Shown: positions 1-60,492 of the stretch, piece by piece
Layout: each line of letters begins with the position of its first letter
Numbering within the stretch: the stretch's first letter is position 1
The notes under the pieces: generated by a model
Seen by the model: only the letters and a program-made list of their open reading frames with translations
Databases searched by the model: none
Told to the model about the DNA's origin: nothing
Position numbers and translations under genes: made by a program
Assembly: GCA_036705045.1 (NCBI GenBank)
Contig: JAUBTR010000019.1
Strand: one strand, 5' to 3'
From: Microcoleus sp. BR0-C5
Lineage (GTDB): Bacteria > Cyanobacteriota > Cyanobacteriia > Cyanobacteriales > Microcoleaceae
DNA: 64,000 nt

Positions 1-77
1 TTCTTCCTTCTTCCTTCTTCCTTCTTCCTTCTTCCTTCTTCCTTCTTCCTTCTTCCTTCTTCCTTCTTCCTTCTTCC
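1..77. repeat. Heptamer tandem repeat (TTCTTCC)n, about 11 copies, STRR-like, truncated by the window edge
   Basis: Perfect 7-bp periodicity can be read directly at the window start. Confidence 0.9.
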
Positions 78-79
78 CT

Positions 80-5521: not shown

Positions 5522-5563
5522 GAACAGGCAAGATGCCTGTTCCACAAAGATGAATTTTCTTTC
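5522..5563. repeat. Copy of a dispersed hairpin element (GAACAGGCAAGATGCCTGTTCCACAA-AGATGAATTTTCTTTC)
   Basis: Same core as at 9107-9227, 19316-19500, 57609-57722 and the intragenic copies in nadE and ureC. Confidence 0.8.
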
Positions 5564-5742
5564 TACTCGTTACTAGGCAGAGCCGGGGAACCAGTTAATT
5601 GAGTTTTGTGGAACGGGCATATTGCACGTTCTTGACAATGGTGTAATATGTAGGTTTTAAAAAGCATTTAGCATTGGTATATTGTCAATTCGCCACTATT
5701 TTGATATAAATATAAAAGCTAATTCTAGTGAGGATGTTTTAA

Positions 5743-9494: not shown

Positions 9495-9533
9495 GATTTT
9501 AGATTTTAGATTTTAGATTTTAGATTTTAGAAT
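9495..9533. repeat. STRR heptamer array (GATTTTA)n; related arrays lie at 9652-9676, 10258-10291, 13725-13755, 36939-36985 and 47908-47935
   Basis: 7-bp periodic tandem repeats, read directly. Confidence 0.9.
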
Positions 9534-10212: not shown

Positions 10213-10485
10213 TGGTTGCTGCGAGCTAATTGTTGGCTGTTGGCATATCGAACAATTTGAGATTTGAGATTTGAGATTTGAGATTTGAGATTGACTTGAC
10301 AGATGAATCTGGGGGTTTGAACAAAGGTCAAAACTTTTTTTGCTGCTGTCGGTGGCGGATCTCTGTCTTCTGCAGGACTTACCCCGAACGGATGAAAAGC
10401 AGATGCTGCGATTGCTTGGCTGAGCGCGAACAATCACAGAAATACGTTATTTATGCCTCCTGGACTGTTCTAGTGAGGTCATAAG

Positions 10486-11580
10486 TTAGCGGCTCAAACC
10501 TAATAAGGTATAAAAAAGCAATGATAGTCCCAACCAAATCAGAAAGCAATACCGAGTTAATTGCAATGCTTGGCAAATTAGCGGCGCTGTGATAGGGTGA
10601 ACCGGCTCGCCTAACAGCGGTTTGTGTTTGAGAACTCCGCGATAGGAATTAGTACCTCCTAGTTGCACTCCCAAGATGGCGGCGTAAACGCACTCGCTCC
10701 AACCGGAATTGGGACTGGCATCTTTAACAGCATCTCTCTGACAAATCTGCCAAATGTAAATCGGTTTGCCCGATATAACGGCTAAAGTAATCACTGTTAG
10801 CCGGCAAGGAATCCACGTCAGCACGTCTTCTAGTTTGGCGCTAAACCATCCTAAATCTGTGTATGGCGCTTCTTTGTAGCCGATCGTAGAATCTAATGTG
10901 CTGGCTGCTTTGTAAGCGATCGCCAAGGGGACTATAGCACTCGCCCACATCGAGTTAGGATCGATCGGCGCAGCGGTAACAGTTAATAATAGATGCGGCA
11001 GAGCGAACCCAAGTAAGGCATAAAATAGCGGTGCTGTCACACCATCGACTGCATTCTCTGTTACAGTTTCTAACAATGCTCGCAGAATTTCTGGCTCGGA
11101 TAAGTTTTCGGTATCCCGGCCGACGTAAAGGCTCAACCTTTCTCGCGCCTTGACTAAATCTCCAACATTTAAAGGTGCTAGCACATCCTCTGCTGCTGCC
11201 CTCAAACTGCGACCTGCAAAACAGCTTGCCAGCAAAATGGTCTGTATGGCAATACCTAAAAGAGGATCTACCCAACTAGCAGCTTGGACGCTCGACCAAC
11301 TGACAGTATAACTGCCTACAATCAGCCCGATCGCTAGTATTGTACCAGCACATCGTAGCAGCAGTTTGTGCGGCTCGCCAGCGGGACTATCCTCTGCTTC
11401 AGGCATTTTGCCTGGGGGATTATTCCATATATTAAAGACAAGTCGAGTATAGCGGTCGATCGCCCAACCCATCGCCTGCACCGGATGTGGCCAACCCCAA
11501 GGATCGCCGATCGAATAATCTAATACCGCAGCTAACATCAAAACAGGAAATTCATCCGGCATCATTATATATTGTGTCAA
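10486..11580 (-). CDS. cobD: Adenosylcobinamide-phosphate synthase CobD/CbiB
   Basis: Blocks DPWGWPHPV, NAVDGVTAPLFY, YKAASTLDSTIGYK and SPNSGWSE align with CbiB. Confidence 0.85.
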   Translation of the reverse strand: MTQYIMMPDEFPVLMLAAVLDYSIGDPWGWPHPVQAMGWAIDRYTRLVFNIWNNPPGKMPEAEDSPAGEPHKLLLRCAGTILAIGLIVGSYTVSWSSVQAASWVDPLLGIAIQTILLASCFAGRSLRAAAEDVLAPLNVGDLVKARERLSLYVGRDTENLSEPEILRALLETVTENAVDGVTAPLFYALLGFALPHLLLTVTAAPIDPNSMWASAIVPLAIAYKAASTLDSTIGYKEAPYTDLGWFSAKLEDVLTWIPCRLTVITLAVISGKPIYIWQICQRDAVKDASPNSGWSECVYAAILGVQLGGTNSYRGVLKHKPLLGEPVHPITAPLICQALQLTRYCFLIWLGLSLLFYTLLGLSR

Positions 11581-19315: not shown

Positions 19316-19500
19316 CTTGCACCATTGTCAGCAACAGGCAAGATGCCTGTTCCACAACAGATGAATTTTCTTTTTGCACCATTGTCAGCAACAGGCAAGA
19401 TGCCTGTTCCACAACAGATGAATTTTCTTTTTGCACCATTGTCAGCAACAGGCAAGATGCCTGTTCCACAACAGATGAATTTTCTTTCTTGTGGGGAGTA
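19316..19500. repeat. Tandem array of 3 x about 60 bp of the GAACAGGCAAGATGCCTGTTCCACAACAGATGAATTTTCTTT hairpin element
   Basis: Three near-identical direct copies. The overlapping six-frame ORFs (19288-19565) encode repetitive peptides and are artefacts. Confidence 0.9.
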
Positions 19501-20775: not shown

Positions 20776-22419
20776 TTAATTGTCGATCGCATCCGCATCC
20801 CTTCGCCGCTGGCTGTAGCGTTTCAATTCATCAATTAAGTGAGTATCGTTAGAAGCTGTTCTCGCGCCCGCTTCCGCCGCCCAGCGCTTCAAATCTTCAA
20901 TTTGCGATCGCGCGATCGCAGCTAATGGTACAGTATCCTCGATCGACCTCAAAATATCCTCCGTCATCAAATCCCGGCGCTGTCCGTTGACAAAAGTGCC
21001 AAAGGCTCGATACAATCCATCTATTACCACTTGTTCAATTTCTGCACCGCTAAAATTCTCAGCGCGTTTCGCCAAAATCTCCAAATCAAACTCGCGCAAT
21101 CTAGTCGGCCGCAAACGCTGCAAATGCACTTTAAAAATATCTTGTCGTTCCGATTCAGAGGGCAAATTCAAGAAGAAAATTTCATCAAACCTGCCCTTTC
21201 TCAGCAACTCTGCCGGCAAAATCCTGACGTTATTTGCAGTTGCGACGATAAACACCGGACTGGTTTTTTCCTGCATCCAAGTTATCAAACTGCCGAATAC
21301 CCGGCGCGAAGTTCCCGAATCGCCGTCGCCACCGCTGATAATGTTGCCGAAGGCTTTATCTATTTCATCGATCCACAAAACGCAAGGTGCGATCGCCTCT
21401 GCTAATTGTATCATTTGCCTGACGCGACTTTCGCTTTCCCCGACCACGCCACCAAACAATCTCCCAGTATCCAATCGTAACAGTGGCAAACGCCATTCGC
21501 AAGCAATAGTTTTCGCAGATAAAGATTTGCCAGTGCCTTGAATTCCTACTAACAAAACGCCTTTAGGATTCGGTATGCCGTAGCGTCGCGCTTCGTCAGT
21601 AAAAGCATCTTGCCGCATCTTTACCCACTGTTTCAAATTCTCCAAGCCGCCCACACTTTTTAGGGATTCTCTGGAGTTGAAAAACTCCAAAATGCCAGTT
21701 TGGCGAATTGCTTGCTGTTTTTCCTCCAAAACTCCGTCAATATCTGACTCGTTAATTTGCTGTTTGGCGGCCAAAGCTTTAGCCAAAACCCGCCCGATTC
21801 TAGCGCGACTCAAACCTTGACAAGCTTTAACCAACTGTTCCCTTGCTAAACCGCTAACTTGCAACTGTTGTGGCTTTTCCACAACGTGGGAAATTAAACT
21901 GTCGATTTCTTGTACGTTGGGCAAAGGAAAATCAATTACAGTTACTTCTTCTTTCAATTCCTCCGGCAATTCCAGCGTGTGAGAAGTCAGAACTATAGTT
22001 TTTTTGCTGCGCTTCAATTCCCGCGTTAAATTCCGCAATTCCCGCACTACCGCCGCATTTTTTTCGGTGTATGGATATTTCAAAATTGGGTGCAAATCCC
22101 GCAGGACAAATATGGTATATTCTTCAACAGCAGTTTTGCTGACGCGATCGAGTGCTGCCATTACCGAACCTTTCCCAGAACCGTTATCCTCCCAGCCGCG
22201 CACGAGATCCCAGAACAATACTCGGCGCGCGGGAGTTACTTGTAGCGCTACTTGGGCAATTACAGCTTCGACTGGTTCCTCCTCCGCGCCGACAATGTAC
22301 AGCAGCGAATAGCGGGCACGAATCATCAAATCTAGTCGTTTTACCAGTGCCTCGAAATGGTTATTTTTACTGCCCTTGACGACATCTAATTCTTGGGATT
22401 TGGGGTAATTTTCGGTCAT
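20776..22419 (-). CDS. AAA+ ATPase, Ycf46-like
   Basis: C-terminal AAA module with Walker A GIQGTGKS, Walker B LWIDEID and arginine finger, plus a roughly 250-aa N-terminal domain as in cyanobacterial/plastid Ycf46. Confidence 0.7.
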   Translation of the reverse strand: MTENYPKSQELDVVKGSKNNHFEALVKRLDLMIRARYSLLYIVGAEEEPVEAVIAQVALQVTPARRVLFWDLVRGWEDNGSGKGSVMAALDRVSKTAVEEYTIFVLRDLHPILKYPYTEKNAAVVRELRNLTRELKRSKKTIVLTSHTLELPEELKEEVTVIDFPLPNVQEIDSLISHVVEKPQQLQVSGLAREQLVKACQGLSRARIGRVLAKALAAKQQINESDIDGVLEEKQQAIRQTGILEFFNSRESLKSVGGLENLKQWVKMRQDAFTDEARRYGIPNPKGVLLVGIQGTGKSLSAKTIACEWRLPLLRLDTGRLFGGVVGESESRVRQMIQLAEAIAPCVLWIDEIDKAFGNIISGGDGDSGTSRRVFGSLITWMQEKTSPVFIVATANNVRILPAELLRKGRFDEIFFLNLPSESERQDIFKVHLQRLRPTRLREFDLEILAKRAENFSGAEIEQVVIDGLYRAFGTFVNGQRRDLMTEDILRSIEDTVPLAAIARSQIEDLKRWAAEAGARTASNDTHLIDELKRYSQRRRDADAIDN

Positions 22420-25098: not shown

Positions 25099-25434
25099 TC
25101 ATTCCCAATCCGCAAGAGCGACTTTCAAACAAGCACGAACCTCCTTCCAGTCACGTTGTGACAGATGACCAATTAGAACTAAGTTGGAAGATGGGGGTAG
25201 AGTGACAATAAAACTGCGAAAAACTGAAGCGACTCGTAAACCTGCGGCGGCCCAATCTTGGAGTATATAATCAGTTAAACCTAAAGCAGTTGTCTGTGTA
25301 GTCAGGAGTCCAGCTATTACATCGCGGCGGGTTGTGTTATAGGTAACTGATGATAGAATTACAGCCGGACGACGTTTAATGCCAGTGACACCAGGAAAAT
25401 CAACTGTCACCACATCACCAGGATTAAAAGACAC
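25099..25434 (-). CDS. MazF/PemK-family type II toxin (mRNA interferase)
   Basis: N-terminal GDVVTVDFPGVTGIKRRPAVIL is the characteristic PemK/MazF signature. Confidence 0.75.
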   Translation of the reverse strand: MSFNPGDVVTVDFPGVTGIKRRPAVILSSVTYNTTRRDVIAGLLTTQTTALGLTDYILQDWAAAGLRVASVFRSFIVTLPPSSNLVLIGHLSQRDWKEVRACLKVALADWE

Positions 25435-25436
25435 TA

Positions 25437-25655
25437 TTACATCTCCTCATTTTCAGAAAAAATGGTGGCCGCGTACTGCAAAGAAAATGCCGTCACATCG
25501 AGTTTATCTTCCTCAGTCCAAGTCTCGCTTTCATCGACAACCGACAGATTTTGCTGCACCAAATCGTTGAGAATAAGAGTTGCCAAGCGCAGTCTATCCT
25601 TTGGTGAAAGGGTAGACAGAACGCGATCGTAAACTTCTCGAACAGTAGTTAACAT
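25437..25655 (-). CDS. Putative cognate antitoxin of the MazF-like toxin
   Basis: 72-aa acidic ORF immediately upstream of the toxin on the same strand with a 2-bp gap. Confidence 0.45.
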   Translation of the reverse strand: MLTTVREVYDRVLSTLSPKDRLRLATLILNDLVQQNLSVVDESETWTEEDKLDVTAFSLQYAATIFSENEEM

Positions 25656-29479: not shown

Positions 29480-30511
29480 TTACTGGCGATTAACTGAAAC
29501 TATAACTTCTGTTCCGTTTCCGGGGTGGCTGTTTACAGTTAGCTGCGCGTTAATGCGATCGGCGCGTTCTCTCATGCCCAATAAACCAAAGCCATTCCTA
29601 AAACAGATACTTTCTGTATCAAATCCCTTTCCGTTGTCTTTCACCCGCAAAAGGAACTTGGATGTTTCGTAAACCAACTCAATTTTGATCGCTGTAGCTT
29701 TGGCATATTTGAAAATATTTGTTAATGCTTCCTGCCCGATTCGCAACAGGTTATTTTCTACCTCTAATGGTAGGGAATAGGCTGTGCCAACTACTTCTAA
29801 AATAGTGCGCGTATCAGTATCTGATGACATTTGTTTTGCAATTTGGTTGAGAGCGCTATACAAATCGCCATCTTCTAACAGTTGCGGGCGCAAAGATTCT
29901 ACGGATCGCCGTGCTTCAGCAAGTCCAGAACGAGCTAATTCGCAGACTGTTTTCATGTGTGCTTGTGCTTGTTCGGGATTGGCTGCTATTACCCGCTCTG
30001 CTGCTCCCAAATGTATGATAATGCCTGCAAAAGTTTGCGCTAAGGTGTCGTGAATTTCCCGCGCCATACGGTTGCGCTCTTCGAGAATATTTTGGTCTAT
30101 GAGTTGTTTAGACATCCTTTTTATACGTAATTGGTTTTCCACGCGCACTAAAACTTCTTGTTGTTGAAAAGGTTTTGTAATATAGTCTACTCCGCCCAGA
30201 TAAAATGCTTTTACCTTATCGAAAACTTCTTGCAAAGCGCTGATAAAAATTATTGGAATATCTTGAGTTTTCGGAGTAGCTTTGAGCTGCTCGCAGACTT
30301 CGTAGCCATCCATGTGAGGCATCATAATATCGAGTAAAATTAAGTCTGGTAAGTTGGCATTGATAAAGTTTAGAGCTAATTTCCCACTGGGAGCTAGGTG
30401 AACTTTATACCCAGCGACAGATAGTATCCCGCTTAAAAGTTTTAAATTCTCAGGACAATCATCAATAACTAAAATACTTTCTTCGCTGGTAAAACTGAGG
30501 TTTTTGTTCAT
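29480..30511 (-). CDS. Response-receiver-containing histidine kinase (REC - HisKA_3 - HATPase_c, NarL-partner type)
   Basis: N-terminal REC (LVIDD...D), then H-box REIHDTLAQ (HisKA_3) and an ATPase domain. Confidence 0.75.
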   Translation of the reverse strand: MNKNLSFTSEESILVIDDCPENLKLLSGILSVAGYKVHLAPSGKLALNFINANLPDLILLDIMMPHMDGYEVCEQLKATPKTQDIPIIFISALQEVFDKVKAFYLGGVDYITKPFQQQEVLVRVENQLRIKRMSKQLIDQNILEERNRMAREIHDTLAQTFAGIIIHLGAAERVIAANPEQAQAHMKTVCELARSGLAEARRSVESLRPQLLEDGDLYSALNQIAKQMSSDTDTRTILEVVGTAYSLPLEVENNLLRIGQEALTNIFKYAKATAIKIELVYETSKFLLRVKDNGKGFDTESICFRNGFGLLGMRERADRINAQLTVNSHPGNGTEVIVSVNRQ

Positions 30512-36894: not shown

Positions 36895-37177
36895 AGCATA
36901 AATTTGCTCCTCACACCAGAGGTGCGTGAGCCATCAGTCGATTTTAGATTTTAGATTTTAGATTTTAGATTTTAGATTTTAGATTTGACTCCACATCTTA
37001 GATTTTAGAAGCCAAGACAGGCTTCCCAGTCCATACAGCTTGTTCGATAATGTCAGCGGCGCGCTTGACTCCGCCCGATCGCCTCTTGCATCTCGATCGC
37101 CCTTTGTTTATACGACTCTGGGGTTAGGACTTTCACAATTGCCGATCGGACTTTAGAAACGCTCAATCCTCCTATAA

Positions 37178-48816: not shown

Positions 48817-50241
48817 ATGAAAACTACCACAGAAAGCCTGCAGCTCACAGGTTTTGAAGAAATCTTAGAAGACCAGGAACTAACGGTTTCTTCAGCAGAT
48901 TACAGCCTTTTGACCGATCTCTACCAGCTAACGATGGCCGCTTGTTACGTCGGGGAAGGGCTCGACGGGCGGGCCGCGAGTTTTGAGTTGTTCGCGCGCA
49001 GGCTGCCAGAAGGTTTTGGCTACGCGATCGCGATGGGTTTGGCCCAAGTGCTCGACTATCTGGAGAAATTTCGGTTTTCTCAGTCGCAAATTCAGGCTTT
49101 GCAGTCCACTGGGATTTTTGCCGGCGCAGGAGAGCGATTTTGGACTTTACTCGCCACAGCCCGTTTTACTGGCGATGTTTGGGCGGTGCCGGAGGGGACG
49201 GCGGTGTTTGCCAATGAGCCACTGCTGCGAATTGAGGCTCCTCTGTGGCAGGCTCAGTTAGTGGAAACTTATTTATTGAATGCGATAAATTATCAAACTT
49301 TGATTGCGACGCGGGCCGCGCGGCTGCGCGATGTGGCGGGCCCGGAGGCTAAGTTGCTGGAATTCGGGACGCGCAGGGCTTTTGGGCCTCAAGCTGCTGT
49401 TTGGGCGGCTAGGGCTGCCCTGGCTGCGGGCTTCGATGGAACTTCTAATGTTTTGGCTGCTTTGAAGTTGGGCCGCAAGCCTGTCGGTACGATCGCCCAT
49501 GCTTTGGTAATGGCTGTGGCTGCCCTCGAAGGCACCGAGAATCAGGCGTTTGCAGCTTTTCACCGCTATTTTCCGGGGGCGCCGCTGCTGATCGATACTT
49601 ATGATACTGTGGCGGCGGCGCGGATGTTGGCCGATCAAGTAAACAGCGGTGAAATGCAGTTGGAAGGCGTGCGGCTGGATTCGGGCGATTTGGCGGTGCT
49701 GTCTCGGGAAGTTCGATCGATCCTTCCGGGCGTTCCAATTTTTGCTAGTGGTGATTTGGACGATCGAGAAATTGCTAAATTAAAAAGTAGCGGTGCTTGC
49801 ATTGACGGTTACGGTTTGGGAACCAAGTTGGTCAGCGGTTCCCCTGTGAACGGTGTTTATAAGTTGGTGGAAATTGACGGAATTCCGGTGATGAAAGAGG
49901 CAAGCGGCAAGGTAACATATCCAGGAAGAAAGCAAATTTTTAGACATATTGAAAATGGGCAAATTCTCGGAGATTGTTTGGGATTGTCGGGAGAAACTAT
50001 TAAAAATAGCGATGATTACGTACCATTAATGGAGTTGGTTGTCAAGGATGGTAAACAAGTCCAGAACCAGGAAAGTTTGGAGGAGATCGCCAAACGCACT
50101 GCTGCTTCTGTCGCCAGTCTTCGACCCGAAACTCGCCAACTTGACAACCCGATTTCGCCGTCAGTGGAAATTTCAACAGATTTGCAGACTCTCACCCAAA
50201 AAACGAAAAAGAGTCAATCGATTTTAGATTTTAGATTTTAG
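48817..50241 (+). CDS. pncB: Nicotinate phosphoribosyltransferase
   Basis: LTDLYQLTMAACY and GTRRA motifs are conserved NAPRTase blocks. The ORF track starts at 48799; the 3' end reads through into an STRR array. Confidence 0.8.
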   Translation: MKTTTESLQLTGFEEILEDQELTVSSADYSLLTDLYQLTMAACYVGEGLDGRAASFELFARRLPEGFGYAIAMGLAQVLDYLEKFRFSQSQIQALQSTGIFAGAGERFWTLLATARFTGDVWAVPEGTAVFANEPLLRIEAPLWQAQLVETYLLNAINYQTLIATRAARLRDVAGPEAKLLEFGTRRAFGPQAAVWAARAALAAGFDGTSNVLAALKLGRKPVGTIAHALVMAVAALEGTENQAFAAFHRYFPGAPLLIDTYDTVAAARMLADQVNSGEMQLEGVRLDSGDLAVLSREVRSILPGVPIFASGDLDDREIAKLKSSGACIDGYGLGTKLVSGSPVNGVYKLVEIDGIPVMKEASGKVTYPGRKQIFRHIENGQILGDCLGLSGETIKNSDDYVPLMELVVKDGKQVQNQESLEEIAKRTAASVASLRPETRQLDNPISPSVEISTDLQTLTQKTKKSQSILDFRF

Positions 50242-50351
50242 ATTTTAGATTGAAGTCAGTAGTCAGTAGTCAGTAGTCAGTAGTCAACAGTCAACAGTCA
50301 ACAGTCAACAGTCAACAGTCAACAGTCAACAGTCAACAGTCAACAGTCAAC
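50216..50351. repeat. Compound STRR array (GATTTTA)4-(AGTCAGT)4-(CAACAGT)n
   Basis: Three consecutive heptamer repeat types, overlapping the pncB stop region. Confidence 0.9.
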
Positions 50352-50366
50352 AATTACCGATTCCCT

Positions 50367-52127: not shown

Positions 52128-53981
52128 ATGAAAATTGCGATCGCACAACTCAACCCTACTATTGGTGATATCTTTGGCAACTCCAACCTAATTCTGGAGG
52201 CTGCGAAAAAAGCTGAGGTTGAGGGCGCAAACTTATTGCTAACACCGGAACTTTCCCTGATCGGTTATCCGCCGCGCGATTTGTTAATCAATCCGAGTTT
52301 CATTGCAGATGCAGGTGCACAGTTGCTGCAACTAGCGCAAGCTTTGCCACCGGAGTTGGCACTCATAGTCGGCACTGCCTTACCTAATGCTAATGCTGTT
52401 AAACTCGGCGGAAAATCATTGTTTAATAGCGCTGTTTTGTTGCAAAATGGCGTGGTCAAACAAGTTTTTCATAAACGCTTGTTGCCTACTTATGATGTAT
52501 TTGACGAAGATAGATATTTTGAACCGGGACAAAACAGCCATTATTTTACTATTGGCAAAGTCAAAATCGGCGTGACAATTTGTGAAGATTTGTGGAACAA
52601 TGAGGAGTTTTGGGGTAAACGCAGTTACGCGGGCGATCCTGTTTCCGATTTGGCAAAATTGGGTGTAGATTTAGTGGTGAATTTGTCGGCATCGCCTTAT
52701 TCTGCGGGGAAGCGGGGAGTGCGATCGGCTATGTTGCAGCACAGCGCCATCCGCTGCGGAATACCGATTGTTTACGCTAATCAGGTAGGCGGAAATGACG
52801 ATATTATTTTTGACGGCAGCAGTTTTGCTGTGAATCGAAAGGGTGATTTAATTCAGGTATTGGCTTCTTTTGAAACTGATTTGGCGCTGCTGGAATATGA
52901 CCCAGCTAAACAAGATTTAGTTGGCAGCGGGAACGGGCAAGATGCCCGTTCCACAACAGATTTGGGATTATGTGAAGGACGACAAAAACTAGGTTCGATC
53001 GGCAGTGGCGTTGGCAGCGGCGGGAACGGGCAAGATGCCCGTTCCACAACAGATTTGAGTTTTCATCCGGCAGAAGGAGATGCCGAAATTTGGGCGGCTT
53101 TGGTTTTGGGAGTGCGAGATTATGTTCGCAAGTGCGGTTTTTCTAAGGTTGTACTCGGTTTGAGTGGCGGGATAGATTCGGCTTTGGTGGCTGCGATCGC
53201 CAGTTGCGCGATCGGGGCCGAAAATGTTCTAGGGGTGTTGATGCCTTCTCCTTACAGTTCGGATCATTCTGTTAACGATGCTTTGGAATTAGCCCGAAAT
53301 CTGGGCATCGCGATCGAACTCTTGCCGATCGGCGATTTGATGAAAACTTACGATCGCACTCTAGCCAATTTGTTTGTCAACACAACTTTCGGGATTGCTG
53401 AGGAAAATATTCAATCGCGGATTCGAGGCAATCTGTTGATGGCAATTTCTAACAAGTTCGGACATTTGCTGCTTTCGACGGGCAATAAGTCGGAAATGGC
53501 GGTGGGTTACTGCACTCTCTACGGCGATATGAATGGGGGATTGGCGGTGATTTCCGATGTGCCGAAAACTCGCGTTTATTCGCTTTGTCGGTGGCTGAAT
53601 TCTGGCGGATATGTAGGGGCGGTGCCCCCGTGCCCGCCCTCTCCGTACCCACACCCGTGCCCGCCCCTGGGAAAGGAAATTATTCCGGTTAATATTATTA
53701 GTAAAGCGCCGAGTGCTGAACTGAAACCGGGTCAAATTGACCAAGATTCTTTGCCTGCATACGATGTTTTGGATGACATCTTGTATCGGTTGATAGAACA
53801 TCACGAATCTGCCCAAAAAATTGTCGCTGCAGGACACGATGAAGCGGTGGTTAAACGGGTAGTAAAATTAGTGAGGCAAGCGGAGTTTAAACGGCGGCAA
53901 GCAGCCCCTGGTTTGAAAATTAGCGATCGAGCTTTTGGTACCGGTTGGCGGATGCCGATCGCCAAATCTTCCTTCTATTAA
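52128..53981 (+). CDS. nadE: Glutamine-dependent NAD+ synthetase (CN-hydrolase + NAD synthetase domains), carrying in-frame repeat insertions
   Basis: N-terminal nitrilase-like domain (MKIAIAQLNP...), C-terminal PP-loop SGGIDSA. 617 aa, about 60 aa longer than usual because of the insertions at 52918-53060 and 53624-53672. Confidence 0.85.
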   Translation: MKIAIAQLNPTIGDIFGNSNLILEAAKKAEVEGANLLLTPELSLIGYPPRDLLINPSFIADAGAQLLQLAQALPPELALIVGTALPNANAVKLGGKSLFNSAVLLQNGVVKQVFHKRLLPTYDVFDEDRYFEPGQNSHYFTIGKVKIGVTICEDLWNNEEFWGKRSYAGDPVSDLAKLGVDLVVNLSASPYSAGKRGVRSAMLQHSAIRCGIPIVYANQVGGNDDIIFDGSSFAVNRKGDLIQVLASFETDLALLEYDPAKQDLVGSGNGQDARSTTDLGLCEGRQKLGSIGSGVGSGGNGQDARSTTDLSFHPAEGDAEIWAALVLGVRDYVRKCGFSKVVLGLSGGIDSALVAAIASCAIGAENVLGVLMPSPYSSDHSVNDALELARNLGIAIELLPIGDLMKTYDRTLANLFVNTTFGIAEENIQSRIRGNLLMAISNKFGHLLLSTGNKSEMAVGYCTLYGDMNGGLAVISDVPKTRVYSLCRWLNSGGYVGAVPPCPPSPYPHPCPPLGKEIIPVNIISKAPSAELKPGQIDQDSLPAYDVLDDILYRLIEHHESAQKIVAAGHDEAVVKRVVKLVRQAEFKRRQAAPGLKISDRAFGTGWRMPIAKSSFY

Positions 53982-54000
53982 ACGCATCATTAAACGCAAA

Positions 54001-54930
54001 ATGGTTAACATCGACGGTACTTTCGGCTTCGATTTTCTCGCGGGAACTCTCAGCAACGATACGATGAGAGGATTTGCGGGTAATGATACTATTCAAGGTT
54101 TGGGGGGAAATGACCGGATTTTTGGCGATCGGGAAAATGACTTGCTAGCAGGAAATGAAGGCGCTGATACGCTGTCTGGTGGGCAGGGAAGCGATACAAT
54201 CTATGGAGGACAAGGTGAAGATGGGATTTTTGGCGATCGGGGTCACGATTTGCTAATAGGCGGCGAAGGCAGGGATATCTTAACAGGAGGGGCAGGCGAT
54301 GATTTATTTGTCATGGAAAAAACCGCCGCCGCATCTACTATTACTCAAGCCGATATAATTACAGATTTTGGCAACGGCAATGATAAAATTGTCTTGACAG
54401 AAGGCATGAAGTTTAGCGATTTAGAGCTTTCTGTTGCCGACAACCAAACTATTATGAAAGATAAAAAGTCTGGGAATTATTTAGGAGTTGTTCCGGGAAA
54501 CCCAAATCTGACTGAATCCAACTTTATGTCGCTGTTTGGGGGGATAGATATGGGTCAGCTTTTGCCAATTTCTGTTAACACGATTATAGCCGATCGCGCG
54601 ATCGCACTAGAAGTGGCGCAAACTCCCCAAGAACAAGCGACAGGTTTAATGTTTCGCACAGAATTGCCAGACGACAGAGGAATGCTTTTCCCGATCGATC
54701 CCGCGCGAAACGTGCGTTTTTGGATGAAAAACGTGTTGATTGAGCTGGATATGGTTTTTCTGCGGGAAGGCGTCGTGCAGGCGATAATTCCTAACGTACC
54801 GCCGTGTTTGAGCGAAACCTGCCCCAACTACGGCCCGGATGTTCCCGTTGACGGAGTTATTGAACTCAGAGGCGGAAGGGCGGCCCAATTGGGACTCAAA
54901 GTTGGCGATCGGATTCCCAATTTACCCTAA
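54001..54930 (+). CDS. Calcium-binding RTX-type repeat protein with C-terminal DUF192 domain
   Basis: Repeated GGxGxDxL nonapeptides (GGNDRIFGD, GGQGSDTIYGG, GGEGRDILTGG, and others). The C-terminal about 110 aa match DUF192. The ORF track start at 53935 overlaps nadE. Confidence 0.55.
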   Translation: MVNIDGTFGFDFLAGTLSNDTMRGFAGNDTIQGLGGNDRIFGDRENDLLAGNEGADTLSGGQGSDTIYGGQGEDGIFGDRGHDLLIGGEGRDILTGGAGDDLFVMEKTAAASTITQADIITDFGNGNDKIVLTEGMKFSDLELSVADNQTIMKDKKSGNYLGVVPGNPNLTESNFMSLFGGIDMGQLLPISVNTIIADRAIALEVAQTPQEQATGLMFRTELPDDRGMLFPIDPARNVRFWMKNVLIELDMVFLREGVVQAIIPNVPPCLSETCPNYGPDVPVDGVIELRGGRAAQLGLKVGDRIPNLP

Positions 54931-55092: not shown

Positions 55093-55434
55093 GTGCATCC
55101 AATGAATCCTATTGAATTAAAAATAATCCCCCATCAAACTCAAGACGGTTTAGCTTACCAACATTTGCGCTTGCGAATTACCACTCAAGACGGTATCATC
55201 ACACCCGATGATTTACAAGGTTTGAAACTTCCTCAAGACGTTCAATTAAGCCAAGGAATTGTCATTGAAGGTAGAGGAGCAATTTGGCTCTATGGGTATT
55301 TAGTGCACGAATGTCATCCTGCCGCGTGGGTGGGATGTTACGATCCGCGATTAGAAGGTGCCGTGGTAGTAGCGACGCACAAGCACGAGGTATCAGTTGG
55401 ACAGGTATTAAAATTGAGTTTACCAAGCGATTAA
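55093..55434 (+). CDS. Csx3-like small protein (possible cyclic-oligoadenylate deadenylase/Crn3 family), orphan
   Basis: 113 aa with GRGAIWLYGYLVHECHPAAWVGCYDPRLEGAVVVATH, which I recall as the Csx3 core pattern. No CRISPR array or other cas genes are in the window. Confidence 0.4.
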   Translation: MHPMNPIELKIIPHQTQDGLAYQHLRLRITTQDGIITPDDLQGLKLPQDVQLSQGIVIEGRGAIWLYGYLVHECHPAAWVGCYDPRLEGAVVVATHKHEVSVGQVLKLSLPSD

Positions 55435-55580
55435 GACTCTCCTGAGTTTTAGGTGATAATAAATAAAAATAAAACTTGCCTTGGTGGCGGAATCTTAAGA
55501 TCCAGGAGAGTGGTGATTAAATTAGAGCGTTTTGGGTTGAGGGGGTGACAATCCCGTCAGTGCTTTCTGTTCATTGACAC

Positions 55581-56913
55581 TCAAGCGGGCTGAAGCCACT
55601 GAGATTCTGCGGACAAAGCAGCTTTAGGTAACACCCAAAGTTTTACTCTCGCTACGGTGGTCAAGCACCGTCTACACAGTCGGTCAAGCTTTACAACTAA
55701 CTTACTGGCTACTTTTCTTAGAATATTGGCAGCGCCGTTTAGATCTGCATTGATTACAGTTCCATCGGCAGAGCGATACAATCCACGTTTAATTCGTTTC
55801 CCAGATGCTTTCCACTCAGGCGGTTTTTCACCGTACTTGGGTAGGGAGTCTCCATCAAGAAAACTACTTTTAGACGTATAGGCTTCTTCTGTTTCAGTGA
55901 ATTTAATGCCGTACAAATTACACAACTGGCTCAGCCGATCTTTTAATTTTCCTAACGGCATCTGAACAAACTTTTGATTATTCAGTTTACCCATATCGAC
56001 ATTGGATTTGAAACCCTGATTCCATCCAATTACTAGATTTCCAATACCATGCTTTAAGCAGTGGGAGACGATTAACTTCGCAGCTTTATTAATTCCATCG
56101 CGCATTTGGTGATTCCGCTTGCGGGTTACGCGGTCTAGCCAGCTATCCCAGTAGCCCGTGGGCTTTCCTTCCTTTCTAGTTGCTATTTTTTTGTTCCAAA
56201 GTTGATTCATCGCTTTCATGGCGCGAGCATCAATCAAAAAGGAATTTCCGAGCGTATCAACGCAAGCTGCTAAATTATCAGCAGTCCCCAAATCGATTGA
56301 TAACGCTTGGCTATAATCTAAAGCGTGCTGCTGACATTCTACTTCGTAAGACATTTCTAAGTAGAAAGCACCATTCTTCGGAAGAATTGTGAATTCTTTA
56401 ACCTTTGAGTAGTCAATGTTTGACGGCATGGGTAGAAAGAATTCAGAAACCCCTGCGCCAGCGCCGTACTGTTAAACCCAGGGAAAATCTCAACTGGTCG
56501 CCGACAAGCGCTGGCTTTAATCCACCAGAATTTGGATAGGCAACTTTAAACAACTTAGAACCTGTTAAATAGCTCGGAGGCTTGGGTCTAAAATGCAATT
56601 GACCTTTGCCGTACAAAGCTTTTAGCTCTTTGAAACTTTTGAACGCTTCTGTTACCGACATCAAGGTTTGCTGCATGGGTGTTGAAGGCAACGACTTGGC
56701 AACCATCGACTTAGAAATTGACGGTTCAAAAGATAAATCAAACTTCCCTGTCAGCAGTTTTCCTGTTTTAAAAAATGTCTGACGAGTAAAATAAACGGCG
56801 CTATTGTATAACTTTCCAGATTGCCGACAGAGATATTGCAACACGGCTTCAACTTCTTTGGTAGGAGACAGTAATACTTGCTGTACTCCCATTGTTTTTT
56901 TGATTCTAGCCAC
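55581..56913 (-). pseudogene. tnpB: IS200/IS605-family tnpB (RNA-guided nuclease lineage), split by a frameshift and lacking zinc-finger cysteines
   Basis: N-terminal part is ORF 56443-56913 and the RuvC part is ORF 55581-56429, in different frames. RuvC motifs are present (IDLG, E, DLNGAANI) but the C-terminal CxxC pairs are absent. No tnpA. A subterminal hairpin GGGGACTTCAGTCCCC lies at about 57075. Confidence 0.6.
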
Positions 56914-57189
56914 CTCTTTTTCCGATAAATTAGTTGATTTATTTAGTTGAGAGAATTATAGTGGACAAGTCAAGCCACAACAACAAAACTTTATGTTGCC
57001 ACTTCCAGAGTACCAAACCAATAACCACGTCAAGTTCTTGCTTAACTACCATATCATTCTGCTAACTAAGAAAGACACGGGGACTTCAGTCCCCCGAGTC
57101 GCTTTCCTCTCAGGACTAAAGTCACGCTCGTTTCCCGCTTCCCGTATTACTTTTATGAAGTTTTTCGCACCCAAGTTCATCTGGGAGGT

Positions 57190-57480
57190 TTGGGTTTCCC
57201 GAAAGTGACAATTGTCATATTTTACGCCTGGGTGGCAATTGCATACGGATTAGCTTTTAGGAGACAACTTCGCTCGACTCCCTATCCTTTACTGCTGAGT
57301 GGCGTTGGTTTGTTATTTGTTGCCTTTTTTGTAGAAGCGCTGCCTTTAAAAAACGAGATAGTTTCGAGCTTGCTGGAGGGAATACCGAAGCTGTTGAGCG
57401 GGATTAATATTGCACTTTATTTTTGGTTTGTGTCTCAGGGTTTGATAGTCCGATCGCTCAATTTTTCTCACAGGAAATGA
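57190..57480 (+). CDS. Hypothetical small membrane protein
   Basis: Three predicted hydrophobic helices; no homology recognised. Confidence 0.25.
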   Translation: MGFPKVTIVIFYAWVAIAYGLAFRRQLRSTPYPLLLSGVGLLFVAFFVEALPLKNEIVSSLLEGIPKLLSGINIALYFWFVSQGLIVRSLNFSHRK

Positions 57481-57608
57481 AATCCATAATGAAGTAAGAT
57501 GAAGATTTGCCGTTGGGTGGGGGCGGGTTTTTGAGATTGTCTATTTTGGGAAAATATTGTTTGTAAAACCCGCCCCTACATGATTGTATAATCTGTTAAA
57601 ACAGAGAT

Positions 57609-57722
57609 ATTGCACCATTGTCAATTAGCCTTTTATGAACAGGCAAGATGCCTGTTCCACAAAATATAAATTTTCTTGTGGAACAGGCATCTTGCCTGTT
57701 GCTGAAAATAGTGCAAGATATC
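57609..57722. repeat. Nested palindromic hairpin element (same family as 9107-9227) immediately 3' of ureC
   Basis: ATTGCACCATTGTCA...GAACAGGCAAGATGCCTGTTCCACAAAATATAAATTTTCTTGTGGAACAGGCATCTTGCCTGTT...AGTGCAAGAT. Confidence 0.85.
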
Positions 57723-57724
57723 AG

Positions 57725-59482
57725 TTAAAACAAAAAGTATCGCTGCGCCATTGGCAAAACTGTTGCCGGTTCGCAAGTTAACAATTCCCCATCCGCCCTG
57801 ACTTCATAAGTTTCTGGATCGACTTCCATTTGTGGCAAATAATCGTTTAGTTTCATGTCTCTTTTACTAATTTGTCGTGTCCCGGAAACTGCTACAGTGG
57901 GCTTTTGCAAACCGAGCTGTGCTGCAATACCTCGATCGCGCGCAGCTTGGGAAACAAACGTCAGACAAGTCGCCCCAATCGCCCCGCCAAAACTGCCAAA
58001 CATCGGCCTCATGTGCACTGGTTGCGGCGTAGGAATGCTGGCGTTAGCATCTCCCATCTGCCCATAGGCGATCGCCCCTCCTTTAATTACCAGTTCCGGT
58101 TTCACCCCAAAAAAAGCCGGTCGCCACAAACACAAATCCGCCAATTTTCCCTCTTCCACCGAACCGACATACTGACTAATTCCGTGAGTAATTGCCGGAT
58201 TAATTGTATATTTCGCAATGTACCGCTTCACCCGAAAATTGTCATTTTCTCCCCCTGTGGAACGGGCATCTTGCCCGCCCAAACCCCCTGTGGAACGGGC
58301 ATCTGGTCCGTTCAAATTCCCCCTTTGAACCTTCATTTTATGTGCCGTTTGCCAAGTCCGAATAATCACCTCTCCAACTCTTCCCATCGCCTGAGAATCA
58401 GAAGAAATCATACTAAACGCGCCTAAATCGTGGAGAATATCCTCAGCAGCAATAGTTTCCCTTCTAATTCTCGATTCAGCAAAAGCCACATCTTCAGGAA
58501 TGCCCCGATCCAAATGGTGGCAAACCATCAACATATCTAAATGTTCTTCTAAAGTATTGACAGTGTAAGGGCGAGTCGGGTTAGTTGACGAGGGCAAAAC
58601 ATTAGCTTGACCGCACACTTTAATAATATCCGGCGCGTGTCCGCCGCCAGCACCTTCGGTGTGGTAAGTGTGAATAGCGCGATTTTTAAATGCGGCAATT
58701 GTAGCTTCCACAAATCCCGCTTCATTGAGAGTATCGGTGTGAATTGCAACTTGCACATCGTACTCGTCAGCTACACTCAAACAAGTGTCGATCGTTGCTG
58801 GTGTAGTTCCCCAATCTTCATGGAGTTTCAAACCCATTGCACCGGCAAAGATTTGTTCAATTAATCCTTGGGGTTGACTGCTATTTCCTTTACCTAAAAA
58901 TCCTAGATTTACGGGGAAAGCGTCAGCAGCTTGCAGCATTCGGTACATATGCCAAGGCCCTGGAGTGCAAGTTGTGGCGTTTGTACCCGTTGCCGGGCCA
59001 GTGCCGCCGCCGATCATTGTCGTGATGCCGGAGGCGATCGCCACTTCTATTTGCTGCGGACAAATAAAGTGAATGTGAGTATCAATTCCCCCAGCGGTGA
59101 GAATCATTCCTTCACCGGCAATCACTTCTGTACCGGGCCCGATAATAATATCTACCCTATCTTGAATATAAGGATTTCCGGCTTTACCAATTTTGTAAAT
59201 TTTGCCGTCTTTAATGCCCACATCTGCTTTAACAATTCCCCACCAGTCTAATATTAAAGCATTAGTAATCACCGTGTCAACAGCGCCGTCTGCATTAGAA
59301 ATAGGCGACTGTCCCATGCCGTCGCGAATAACTTTGCCACCGCCAAACTTAACTTCATCCCCGTAGGTTGTGAAGTCTTTTTCAACTTCTATGAATAATT
59401 CTGTATCGGCTAACCGGACGCGATCGCCCACAGTCGGCCCGAAGGTTTCCGCGTAGGCGCGGCGATCCATTCTGTAACTCAT
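57725..59482 (-). CDS. ureC: Urease alpha subunit, with an in-frame repeat insertion
   Basis: Amidohydrolase metal ligands ([13 protein letters not shown], carbamylated-Lys region); 585 aa. The insert [24 protein letters not shown] is encoded by two copies of the GAACGGGCAAGATGCCCGTTCCACA repeat. Confidence 0.9.
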
Positions 59483-59487
59483 ATTAA

Positions 59488-60492
59488 TTAGCTCCTTACT
59501 TGATTTAATTTTCCCACAAACTGGTTCACCTGTTCTTCTGTTTTAAAGAATCCTTCACCAATTGAACCAAAGAAATCATCTTGTGCTATTTCTTGATAGT
59601 TAGGTAACAAATTAGCCAACTCTTCTACATCAATGTTTAAATAGTTTGACAATCTATCTATGTATACCTTAAACTTTAGACCCTCCCTAGGCGTGCTTTC
59701 AGTTAACAAAAGATTGAAAATAACTTGGCTATTTTGACTTGTTCCTCTCAATGCCAGACCTCTTGTTGTTGTATTTATCCAAAATATTTGTGGTATGATT
59801 TCGTTGTAAAGTAGTCTATACACTTTTCCAACTTCCTTGCTCTCTGCTATTTCAATTAATTCTTCCAGGGTCAAGTTGGGCTTTCTTTTTGATATTATAT
59901 TTACAGGTTTAATTTCAGCCTCAATCAAGAATTTTATTGCTAGTAACTCTCTACCACTAGAGTCACAGAAATACTGGAATGTTGCGACATTGATTCTCAC
60001 ACCATAAGTTTCTAATAAGTATTTAATAATCCTTTCAGAACTACTATCTATCTGTGCAGCTACAATTATAATTTTGTGCTGAGCATTCAAAATATCAGGG
60101 AATTCTGAGCTAAATTTCTCACAGAAAGCCTTTTCTAAGTTACTGCCATTTTTAGTCAGTAAATAAGCATTGGCAATTTCTCTAACTCTCTCGTTTGACA
60201 AATCCTTAACCCATGAGGCGTAATCCAAGGCTTGTGCTGTTACTTCTCTTGCTGTTTTGTCCTTCTTTAACTCAACAATGACTAAATCTCCGTTCCTATC
60301 TATACATAAAAGGTCAAGTTGTCCACCATAATCAGTAATCACTTGCCGACCAATTACCAAGAGATCATCTGCTAGGATTGAAATATCATTATCTAGCCAG
60401 GTTTCTAAACGAGATTCTAAGTCTAACTTAGATTGGGTAATTTCCTTCAAGTGAGCCTTTGATATTTTCCACAATCTAATTTGATCGGGCAT
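59488..60492 (-). CDS. PD-(D/E)XK nuclease-like protein (NucS/DUF91-like N-terminal domain) inserted between ureB and ureC
   Basis: [24 protein letters not shown] fits the D...(D/E)xK restriction-endonuclease-like core. The C-terminal about 200 aa are uncharacterised. Confidence 0.35.

What the first reader, a model, noticed from the sequence alone, without database searches (positions are those of the whole stretch)
55093..56913. Tentative orphan Csx3-like gene beside a degenerate tnpB
The 113-aa ORF at 55093 has the G.G.IWLY…H.CHP.AW…DPRL.GAVVV.TH pattern that I associate with Csx3/Crn3 ring nucleases of type III CRISPR systems. I hold this at 0.4 confidence from memory only. There is no CRISPR array, cas10 or other cas gene in 64 kb. 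Immediately downstream is an IS605-family tnpB on the opposite strand, split by a frameshift near 56430-56445 and lacking the C-terminal zinc-finger cysteines although the RuvC D/E/D residues persist. This could be the remnant of a mobile-element-associated signalling module, or Csx3 acting outside a CRISPR context, for example pairing with another cOA-producing system elsewhere.
Basis: partly seen in the sequence, partly recalled or inferred. Interest (0 to 1): 0.55.

Follow-up and report, generated by a model that had tools for sequence, protein, structure and literature searches.

The report
Stand-alone Crn3/Csx3 ring nuclease gene
The small gene is a real Csx3/Crn3 ring nuclease (the enzyme that switches off type III CRISPR alarm signals), fixed away from any CRISPR locus throughout the cyanobacterial genus Microcoleus, and the broken tnpB next to it is an unrelated, strain-specific insertion.

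Summary
ORF 55102-55434 (+) is a clear Crn3/Csx3: it scores 117 bits against Pfam (cut-off 21) and 97 bits against TIGR02579 (cut-off 55). Its model matches the AfCsx3 fold (TM about 0.8), and all catalytic and cA4-binding residues are present. The 64 kb window has no cas gene and no CRISPR array.

The tnpB link is incidental. The tnpB lies in a 1581-bp IS200/IS605-type element (55574-57154, minus strand). Sister strains have a clean empty site there and the same csx3. The tnpB carries a single 1-nt frameshift at 56454-57. The missing zinc-finger cysteines are normal for its clade.

The csx3 gene is orphan at this same place, just downstream of an RTX-DUF192 gene and the NAD operon, in all 61 Microcoleus/Tychonema-lineage species genomes recovered. 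It is under strong purifying selection there (dN/dS about 0.095). In all 19 other cyanobacterial genomes recovered in the scan (and two further look-ups), the closest homologues sit beside type III cas genes or their accessory genes.

Microcoleus and Tychonema carry similar type III loci elsewhere (Card1-like CARF nuclease, Cas10 with GGDD, RAMPs, Csx19), but those loci lack csx3.

Best reading: an active cA4 ring nuclease that serves type III loci in trans. It is a known family in an undescribed but modestly novel arrangement.

The parts
55102..55434 (+). csx3/crn3, 110 aa, a single-domain ring nuclease. An alternative GTG start at 55093 would give 113 aa.
   Evidence: Pfam 117.1 bits and TIGR02579 97.2 bits. 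AF2 model pLDDT 92.8. Foldseek top hits are AfCsx3 3wzg/6yud, TM 0.75-0.80. The equivalents of AfCsx3 G45, R46, I49, H57, H60, D69, R71 and H80 are G57, R58, I61, H69, H72, D81, R83 and H93, all present.
53935..54930 (+). Upstream neighbour: an RTX (HemolysinCabind) + DUF192 protein. It is the conserved 5' partner of the orphan csx3 across the genus.
   Evidence: Pfam DUF192 109 bits and HemolysinCabind 100 bits. It is adjacent to csx3 in 61 of 61 Microcoleus-lineage loci where the upstream flank is present. The spacer is about 47 nt in about 60% of them and 171 nt in the window.
55574..57154 (-). IS200/IS605-type element, 1581 bp, carrying only tnpB and no tnpA. It is a strain-specific insertion.
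   Evidence: Empty sites in L008 and L035 align to window ..55577 and 57155.. with no target duplication. The right end terminates in TCAA. A related copy in L089 is 68% identical at the nucleotide level.
56443..56913 (-). tnpB N-terminal fragment (156 aa).
   Evidence: NF040570 38 bits over profile positions 3-122. It aligns to residues 1-170 of intact P0241.
55581..56471 (-). tnpB C-terminal reading frame, open from 56471 (listed ORF 55581-56429). It holds the RuvC D/E/D residues.
   Evidence: NF040570 116.5 bits. About 65-67% identity to P0241 residues 160-433.
56454..56457 (-). Frameshift site: 4 nt (CGCA on the minus strand) where one codon is expected, next to a G4 run.
   Evidence: The N-frame matches homologues up to ...LTVRRW. 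The C-frame matches from G-VSEFFLPMPSN (with the sequence).
57155..57159 (-). TTCAT on the minus strand, immediately 5' of the element's left end. It is the candidate target/TAM motif.
   Evidence: Comparison of junctions with the empty site. Assigning it as a TAM is an inference from how IS200/IS605 elements insert.
55574..55800 (-). Candidate omega-RNA scaffold region. It overlaps the tnpB 3' end and runs to the right end.
   Evidence: MFE -67.4 kcal/mol, z = -2.4. The region is conserved with L089, with 3 compensatory pairs in a 2-sequence alignment. There is no Rfam match. Weak evidence.

Best explanation
Window 55102-55434 encodes a catalytically competent Crn3/Csx3 ring nuclease.

By homology to A. 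fulgidus Csx3, it should form dimers that stack head-to-tail around cyclic tetra-adenylate (cA4). It should cleave cA4 to linear A2 products with Mn2+. This would switch off cA4-activated CARF effectors after a type III CRISPR response.

In the Microcoleus/Tychonema lineage the gene is no longer inside a type III locus. It is fixed at one chromosomal site, directly downstream of an RTX-DUF192 gene and the NAD salvage/synthesis operon. It is kept under strong purifying selection there.

The type III loci of this lineage lie elsewhere in the genome and lack the csx3 that homologous loci of other cyanobacteria carry in cis. Their gene order is Card1-like CARF nuclease, Cas10 with an intact GGDD cyclase motif, RAMPs, then Csx19.

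The orphan Crn3 therefore most likely acts in trans as the cell's cA4 off-switch.

The tnpB next to it belongs to a non-autonomous IS200/IS605-type element. That element inserted, in this strain only, into the variable csx3-ureC interval. It has since acquired one frameshift and is not functionally connected with csx3.

Shown here: family membership, fold, residues, orphan position, genus-wide synteny, selection, absence of csx3 from the lineage's type III loci, and the insertion boundaries.

Inferred: enzymatic activity, cA4 as the signal, and action in trans in this particular genome.
For: Family and fold.

Catalytic residues: H57, H60, D69, R71 and H80 of AfCsx3 were shown to be essential or important in PMC7371418. 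Their equivalents are invariant in 61 of 61 orphan copies.

Orphan position: there is no cas gene or array in the window. All Microcoleus-lineage loci L015-L075 show DUF192-csx3 with no Cas10, RAMP, Csx19 or CARF within 10 kb. All 19 non-Microcoleus loci L076-L094, plus L011-L014, show csx3 beside type III genes or their accessory genes.

Phylogeny: the orphan clade is one bipartition, with 487 of 500 NJ bootstraps.

Selection: median dN/dS is 0.095 for csx3. Neighbours score NUDIX 0.066, UreC 0.077, NadD 0.135, NAPRT 0.156 and NadE 0.226.

Partner loci: Microcoleus and Tychonema have Cas10 homologues at 54-82% identity to the csx3-linked Cas10, with GGDD intact. They sit in loci with a Card1-like CARF nuclease and no csx3.

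Same-assembly case: in Tychonema sp. LEGE 07203, csx3 is on JADEXD010000066 (L064) and the type III locus is on JADEXD010000113 (L101).

tnpB is incidental.
Against: Only 64 kb of the window's own genome is available, so the presence of a type III locus in this strain is extrapolated from relatives.

The Card1-like annotation rests on Pfam scores near the cut-offs (27.4 vs 26.4; 25.9 vs 24.6). The cA4 specificity of those effectors is assumed from the Card1/Can2 family.

I could not test whether csx3 is present in Microcoleus genomes that lack type III systems altogether. That pattern would point to a CRISPR-independent role.

The short (about 47 nt) spacer to the DUF192 gene in most genomes hints at co-expression with a non-defence gene.

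One MAG copy (L053) has a stop at codon 5.

In Synechocystis, deleting the csx3-domain gene slr7080 did not affect plasmid interference (PMC9676260). A phenotype may therefore be subtle.
Confidence: 0.7

Rival explanations
1. CRISPR-independent, housekeeping-like role. After relocation next to the RTX-DUF192 gene, Csx3 was co-opted for another task. Candidates are the Mn-dependent RNA deadenylase activity first reported for AfCsx3, or degradation or sensing of a cyclic nucleotide from a non-CRISPR source. It is kept as a core gene for that reason.
For: The site is fixed in 61 of 61 species-level genomes. The spacer to the DUF192 gene is about 47 nt in most genomes. dN/dS is as low as in metabolic neighbours. 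Four clade-specific substitutions (V47, R58, A60, K94) separate orphan from CRISPR-linked copies. RNA deadenylase activity of AfCsx3 is described in PMC7371418.
Against: Every residue needed for cA4 binding and cleavage is retained. AfCsx3 binds cA4 about 100-fold tighter than RNA (PMC7371418). The lineage has csx3-less type III loci with a GGDD Cas10, which need some cOA turnover. No link to DUF192 is seen outside this lineage.
Confidence: 0.15
2. Inert remnant. The csx3 gene is all that is left of a type III locus that once lay here, and it is decaying.
For: It is an isolated gene at the edge of a hyper-variable interval (716-8816 bp between csx3 and ureC). One MAG copy has a premature stop (L053).
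Against: dN/dS is 0.095 over dS up to about 1.6. Sixty of 61 copies are intact and the catalytic residues are invariant. No cas remnants or arrays lie in any of the 61 flanks.
Confidence: 0.03
3. Mobile-element cargo or an anti-CRISPR-like ring nuclease. On this view csx3 travels with the tnpB element or another MGE and serves the element, as viral ring nucleases such as AcrIII-1 do.
For: It is immediately adjacent to a tnpB element in this window. Neighbouring intervals hold defence-like cargo (PDC-S11).
Against: The element boundaries (55574-57154) exclude csx3, and empty sites keep csx3. The csx3 position is conserved and vertically inherited across the genus. No other Microcoleus locus has this tnpB.
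Confidence: 0.02

Closest known systems
Crn3/Csx3 of Archaeoglobus fulgidus (AF_1864; PDB 3WZI, 6YUD, 6VJG)
   Same: Both are single-domain proteins of about 110 aa. The fold is the same (TM 0.75-0.80). The H57/H60/H80 face and the D69/R71 face are conserved. The expected mechanism is therefore the same: a cA4 sandwich between dimers and Mn-dependent cleavage (PMC7371418).
   Different: Sequence identity is only about 30%. AfS44 is replaced by an invariant Glu in the cyanobacterial clade. AfCsx3 lies beside a type III-B locus with Csx1, whereas this gene has no cas neighbour within the window: the nearest window edge is 8.6 kb downstream and 55 kb lie upstream.
CRISPR-linked cyanobacterial Csx3 (e.g. 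Coleofasciculus, Kastovskya, Baaleninema, Lyngbya-type loci L011, L013, L077, L079, L088, L092)
   Same: Identity is 64-74%, the length is the same and the catalytic residues are the same. These are the sister sequences of the orphan clade.
   Different: Those genes sit next to a WYL-domain protein of about 450 aa, a Card1-like CARF nuclease, Cas10, RAMPs and Csx19, and often a 308-aa Csx3-long paralogue. The Microcoleus gene has none of these nearby and instead follows an RTX-DUF192 gene.
Orphan ring nucleases such as PfCsx15 (PMC13148439), and ring nucleases proposed to act in trans (PMC12409355)
   Same: Each is a ring-nuclease family member encoded away from any type III locus. About 25% of csx15 genes are orphans, and trans action has been proposed for ring nucleases in effector-less loci.
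   Different: The protein family is different. PfCsx15 has lost catalysis and only sequesters cA4. Here all Crn3 catalytic residues are kept and the orphan position is fixed across a whole genus.
IS200/IS605-family solo-tnpB (IS1341-like) elements with omega-RNA
   Same: The TnpB has the RuvC D/E/D residues. Insertion leaves no target duplication. The target motif lies 5' of the left end and the right end terminates in TCAA. The structured 3' region overlaps the tnpB end.
   Different: There is no tnpA. The tnpB is split by one frameshift. The clade lacks the CxxC...CxxC zinc finger. The omega-RNA is not confirmed (no Rfam family).

Membership tests
Crn3/Csx3 ring nuclease (PF09620 / TIGR02579) | Score above the curated family thresholds | tested here: met
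   PF09620 at 117.1 bits vs 21. TIGR02579 (equivalog) at 97.2 bits vs 55.4. PADLOC Csx3 at 124 bits.
Crn3/Csx3 ring nuclease (PF09620 / TIGR02579) | Csx3 fold (distinct from the canonical CARF Rossmann fold) | tested here: met
   AF2 model pLDDT 92.8, pTM 0.85. Foldseek ranks 1-13 are all AfCsx3 chains, TM 0.72-0.80, rmsd 1.4-2.0 A.
Crn3/Csx3 ring nuclease (PF09620 / TIGR02579) | Conserved catalytic and cA4-binding residues (AfCsx3 H57, H60, D69, R71, H80, G45, I49) | tested here: met
   Window H69, H72, D81, R83, H93, G57 and I61. They are invariant in 61 orphan copies. Residue roles are from PMC7371418.
Crn3/Csx3 ring nuclease (PF09620 / TIGR02579) | Encoded within or next to a type III CRISPR-Cas locus | tested here: not met
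   No cas gene or array in 64 kb, nor within 10 kb in 61 related genomes. This is a contextual feature, not a structural one. Type III loci exist elsewhere in the lineage.
Crn3/Csx3 ring nuclease (PF09620 / TIGR02579) | Mn2+-dependent cleavage of cA4 and cA4-induced head-to-tail oligomerisation | not testable with these tools
   Needs biochemistry. Only inferred from residue conservation.
IS200/IS605-family TnpB element | TnpB family HMM and the RuvC D/E/D triad | tested here: met
   NF040570 at 116.5 bits vs 100 for the C-terminal piece. D (IDLG), E (TEEAYTS) and D (NADLNGA) align with homologues.
IS200/IS605-family TnpB element | Intact tnpB reading frame | tested here: not met
   Single frameshift at 56454-56457 relative to intact 439-aa P0241. 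No other stops. A sequencing error in the G4 run cannot be excluded.
IS200/IS605-family TnpB element | C-terminal CxxC...CxxC zinc finger | tested here: not met
   Absent from the window copy and from all seven intact homologues aligned, so it is a clade property.
IS200/IS605-family TnpB element | Insertion without target-site duplication, 3' of a short target motif | tested here: met
   Empty sites in L008 and L035 vs the window junctions: TTCAT | element ... TCAA | TGAACA.
IS200/IS605-family TnpB element | Omega-RNA at the 3' end | tested here: inconclusive
   No Rfam hit. Fold z-score -2.4. Three compensatory pairs from only two sequences.
IS200/IS605-family TnpB element | tnpA (Y1 transposase) in the element | tested here: not met
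   No such ORF lies within 55574-57154. The related copy in L089 has a 134-aa IS200-type ORF next to it. The element is therefore non-autonomous.

The most novel reading that the evidence does not exclude
In the Microcoleus lineage, Crn3 has been taken out of the defence island and wired into a core operon with an RTX-DUF192 gene. There it would be a constitutively expressed, genome-wide cA4 'buffer'. This would decouple signal removal from any one type III locus. Alternatively, it could be serving a cyclic-oligoadenylate or RNA-processing role that has nothing to do with CRISPR.
Probability: 0.15. Interest if true: 0.6.

Novelty: new member of a known kind. Interest (0 to 1): 0.3.

Why it matters
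Ring nucleases set the threshold between reversible dormancy and cell death in type III CRISPR immunity. They have mostly been catalogued only within about 6 kb of cas10 (PMC12409355).

This case gives a clean natural example in which the off-switch has been moved out of the locus, then fixed and kept under selection across a whole genus. The cognate loci meanwhile lost their cis copy. Locus-centred surveys therefore under-count ring nucleases. Loci scored as having no ring nuclease may be served in trans.

It is a modest organisational point, not a new mechanism. The protein is already named Crn3/Csx3 in public annotations of Microcoleus. The tnpB part is an ordinary IS insertion.

Tried and rejected
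1. Exact-protein look-ups failed for four window ORFs and gave no context: the 113-aa GTG-start Csx3, window 10486-11580, window 29480-30511, the tnpB C-fragment and the PDC-S11 gene. The cause is probably different called starts or a strain not in the index. The window's own assembly could not be identified.

2. Rfam found no omega-RNA family or any other RNA near csx3/tnpB, at gathering or E-value thresholds.

3. I looked for a csx3 remnant at the place where it sits in other cyanobacteria, upstream of the WYL/CARF genes in Microcoleus type III loci. A permissive tblastn gave nothing better than E 0.045 over 19 aa.

4. I considered a programmed frameshift in tnpB, because the L089 relative is also split. 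I rejected it because the two breaks are at different positions.

5. I considered a functional link to the NAD operon. The deepest-branching orphan locus (L073) keeps DUF192-csx3 but shows no NAD-operon gene within the 10 kb held upstream, so only the DUF192 adjacency is universal.

6. I considered the class III cyclase at 1324-2406 as a CBASS/Pycsar-like signal source. It gave only 18-19 bits to PycC models, so I rejected it.

8. The mean dN for csx3 was inflated by one sequence with an internal stop (L053). I therefore used medians.
Full report
**What is at the coordinates**

The + strand ORF 55093/55102-55434 and two minus-strand tnpB ORFs (56443-56913 and 55581-56429) are present as described.

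The small ORF is an unambiguous Csx3/Crn3:
- Pfam PF09620 at 117.1 bits (cut-off 21).
- NCBIfam TIGR02579 'CRISPR-associated ring nuclease Crn3/Csx3' at 97.2 bits (cut-off 55.4).
- PADLOC Csx3 models up to 124 bits.
- A direct sequence match to the solved A. fulgidus Csx3 structures (E 5e-12).

An AlphaFold2 model built on 22 homologues is confident (pLDDT 92.8). Its 13 best PDB matches are all AfCsx3 chains (TM 0.72-0.80, rmsd 1.4-2.0 A).

The residues shown experimentally to matter in AfCsx3 are H57, H60, D69, R71 and H80, plus the cA4-contacting G45, R46 and I49 (PMC7371418). They correspond to H69, H72, D81, R83, H93, G57, R58 and I61 of the 110-aa protein, and all are present. Gene callers use the ATG at 55102. 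That exact protein occurs on at least 23 Microcoleus contigs, and NCBI already names it Crn3/Csx3.

**Is it orphan?**

Within the window, yes.
- Tandem Repeats Finder, Rfam and a k-mer array finder see no CRISPR array.
- Pfam and PADLOC scans of all long ORFs find metabolic, signalling and transport genes but no Cas family.

The gene order around csx3 is NAPRTase, NadD, NUDIX/NrtR, chorismate mutase (from syntenic loci; not scanned in the window), NadE, RTX+DUF192, csx3, a variable stretch, then ureC.

**Comparative context (the main result)**

A scan of one genome per GTDB species with a Csx3 profile returned 80 loci. I compared these by tblastn with marker proteins taken from the window and from two CRISPR-linked loci.

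*Microcoleus/Tychonema-lineage loci.* There are 61 such loci (L015-L075), with Csx3 84-100% identical.
- In every locus where the upstream flank is present, csx3 sits directly downstream of the RTX-DUF192 gene.
- No Cas10, RAMP, Csx19 or CARF hit lies within 10 kb, and no array is present.
- The spacer to the DUF192 gene is about 47 nt in most genomes and 171 nt in the window.

*Other cyanobacteria.* In all 19 other loci (L076-L094, 68-74% identity), and in L011-L014, csx3 lies beside type III genes or their accessory genes. These are a Cas10 of about 560 aa, several RAMPs and Csx19. Often there is also a WYL-domain protein of about 450 aa, a Card1-like CARF nuclease and a 308-aa Csx3-long paralogue.

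*Evolution of the orphan copies.*
- They form one clade (487 of 500 NJ bootstraps).
- Median pairwise dN/dS is 0.095. This is within the range of the neighbouring housekeeping genes: NUDIX 0.066, UreC 0.077, NadD 0.135, NAPRT 0.156, NadE 0.226.
- All catalytic positions are invariant in 61 of 61 copies.
- One MAG copy has a stop at codon 5.

The gene is therefore functional and vertically inherited at this site. It is not a decaying remnant.

**Is there a partner elsewhere?**

Searching with the Cas10 of a csx3-linked locus finds close homologues named Microcoleus (81-82% and 54% identity) and Tychonema. Their 'GGDD' cyclase motif is intact.

Their loci (L095-L101) read Card1-like CARF nuclease (432-434 aa), Cas10, RAMP x3, Csx19, large RAMP. 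Both Pfam Card1 domains score close to their cut-offs. This is the same architecture as in the csx3-linked loci of other cyanobacteria.

These loci contain no csx3 or Csx3-long within 10 kb where the contig extends that far. They also hold no detectable remnant.

In Tychonema sp. LEGE 07203 both halves are in one assembly. The orphan csx3 is on JADEXD010000066 (L064) and the csx3-less type III locus is on JADEXD010000113 (L101).

I call these loci 'III-D-like' because of Csx19 and the HD-less Cas10. That label is an inference from general knowledge of the classification, not a typed result.

**Mechanism proposed**

By homology, the protein binds cA4 between stacked dimers and hydrolyses it with Mn2+ (PMC7371418).

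Card1/Can2-type effectors are cA4-activated, and Crn3 is cA4-specific. The simplest model is therefore that the orphan Crn3 is the trans-acting off-switch for the lineage's type III loci. The literature already allows for ring nucleases acting in trans and documents orphan csx15 genes (PMC12409355, PMC13148439). I found no paper describing orphan Crn3 in Microcoleus.

Shown: identity, fold, residues, context, selection, and absence from the cognate loci.

Inferred: activity, ligand, and trans action in this strain, whose genome beyond 64 kb I could not see.

**The tnpB**

*Boundaries.* Strains L008 and L035 have an uninterrupted site...GTTCAATGAAGTTTTT.... The window sequence up to 55577 and from 57155 onward aligns to that site with no duplication. 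The insertion is therefore 55574-57154 (1581 bp).

*Junctions on the tnpB strand.* These read TTCAT | element ... TCAA | TGAACAG. This is the IS200/IS605 pattern: a target motif 5' of the left end and a right end terminating in TCAA, as I recall for IS608.

*Content.* The element has no tnpA.

*Frameshift.* I aligned both fragments to intact homologues from an exhaustive HMMER search; P0241 (439 aa) is 65-67% identical to the C-terminal part and 47% to the N-terminal fragment. There is a single frameshift, with 4 nt where one codon is expected at 56454-56457, next to a G4 run. Otherwise the frame is open and the RuvC D/E/D residues are intact.

*Zinc finger.* None of the intact homologues has the CxxC...CxxC zinc finger, so its absence is a clade trait.

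*Related copy.* The copy in Coleofasciculus (L089) is broken at a different position. This argues against programmed frameshifting.

*Omega-RNA.* Evidence for an omega-RNA in 55574-55800 is weak.

*Link to csx3.* Because csx3 is at this site in 61 genomes without this element, the adjacency is coincidental. The csx3-ureC interval is simply a variable hot spot (716-8816 bp).

**Verdict**

- The Csx3 assignment is secure.
- The 'mobile-element module' idea is rejected.
- The 'pairs with a system elsewhere' idea is supported by comparative evidence.

The protein is an ordinary member of a known family and is already annotated as such. What is mildly new is the genus-wide, selected, out-of-locus arrangement, together with the matching loss of csx3 from the lineage's type III loci.

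Interest 0.3.

Noticed in passing
window 52938-52954, 53031-53047 (nadE); 58257-58273, 58290-58306 (ureC); 19339-19469; 5529-5624; 57644-57694: A 17-nt hairpin-type small dispersed repeat (CAAGATGCCYGTTCCAC) occurs 11 times against 0 expected. Four copies are in-frame inside nadE and ureC, where they add 'GQDARST'-type peptide segments. NadE (576-617 aa) and UreC (578-639 aa) vary in length between strains accordingly.
   Followed up: partly
window 59041-59327 (+): Rfam 5_ureB_sRNA hit (108 bits) lying antisense inside the ureC coding sequence. It probably reflects conservation of the urease alpha coding sequence rather than a demonstrated sRNA in this organism.
   Followed up: no
window 59488-60492 (-): A 334-aa gene with a NucS_C-like nuclease domain matches the PADLOC candidate defence family PDC-S11 (228 bits). 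It is wedged between ureC and ureB. Other strains carry Glyco_transf_61, DUF4276+AAA ATPase or MmeI-type genes at or near this place, so the ure operon hosts variable defence-like cargo.
   Followed up: partly
window 55435-57724; loci L015-L075: The csx3-ureC interval is a hot spot of variation, 716 to 8816 bp across strains. In different strains it holds a 209-aa membrane-like ORF, or a LysR/AstE/S8-peptidase block, or, in the window, the tnpB element plus a truncated copy of the 209-aa ORF (57190-57480).
   Followed up: partly
L011, L013, L076-L093 (non-Microcoleus csx3 loci): CRISPR-linked cyanobacterial csx3 is very often paired with a WYL-domain protein of about 450 aa, and with a 308-aa 'Csx3-long'. 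The Csx3 domain of Csx3-long has Cys for AfH57 and Glu for AfD69, so it may bind cA4 but not cleave it in the same way.
   Followed up: partly
L098, L099, L100, L101: One type III locus of Microcoleus/Tychonema is itself at a conserved site, next to ycf54 and followed in L098, L099 and L101 by a glycosyltransferase gene (L100 ends too early to tell), in several assemblies. The WYL gene is present in some (L098-L100) and absent in Tychonema (L101).
   Followed up: no
window 1-81, 9495-9531, 10255-10292, 36940-36986, 50220-50352 and others: Perfect heptanucleotide tandem repeats (GATTTTA, TTCTTCC, AGTCAAC and others) lie mostly in intergenic regions, as is typical of filamentous cyanobacteria.
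   Followed up: no
window 20776-22419 (-); 25099-25655 (-): An AAA ATPase has IetA-like PADLOC hits (96 bits) with no obvious IetS partner noticed. A PemK/MazF-type toxin has a small upstream ORF and is a probable toxin-antitoxin pair.
   Followed up: no
L053 4449-4778: The csx3 copy in the MAG Microcoleus sp. CAN_BIN18 has a stop at codon 5 (MNPI*). It is the only disrupted copy among the 61, and it could be a MAG error or a real loss.
   Followed up: no
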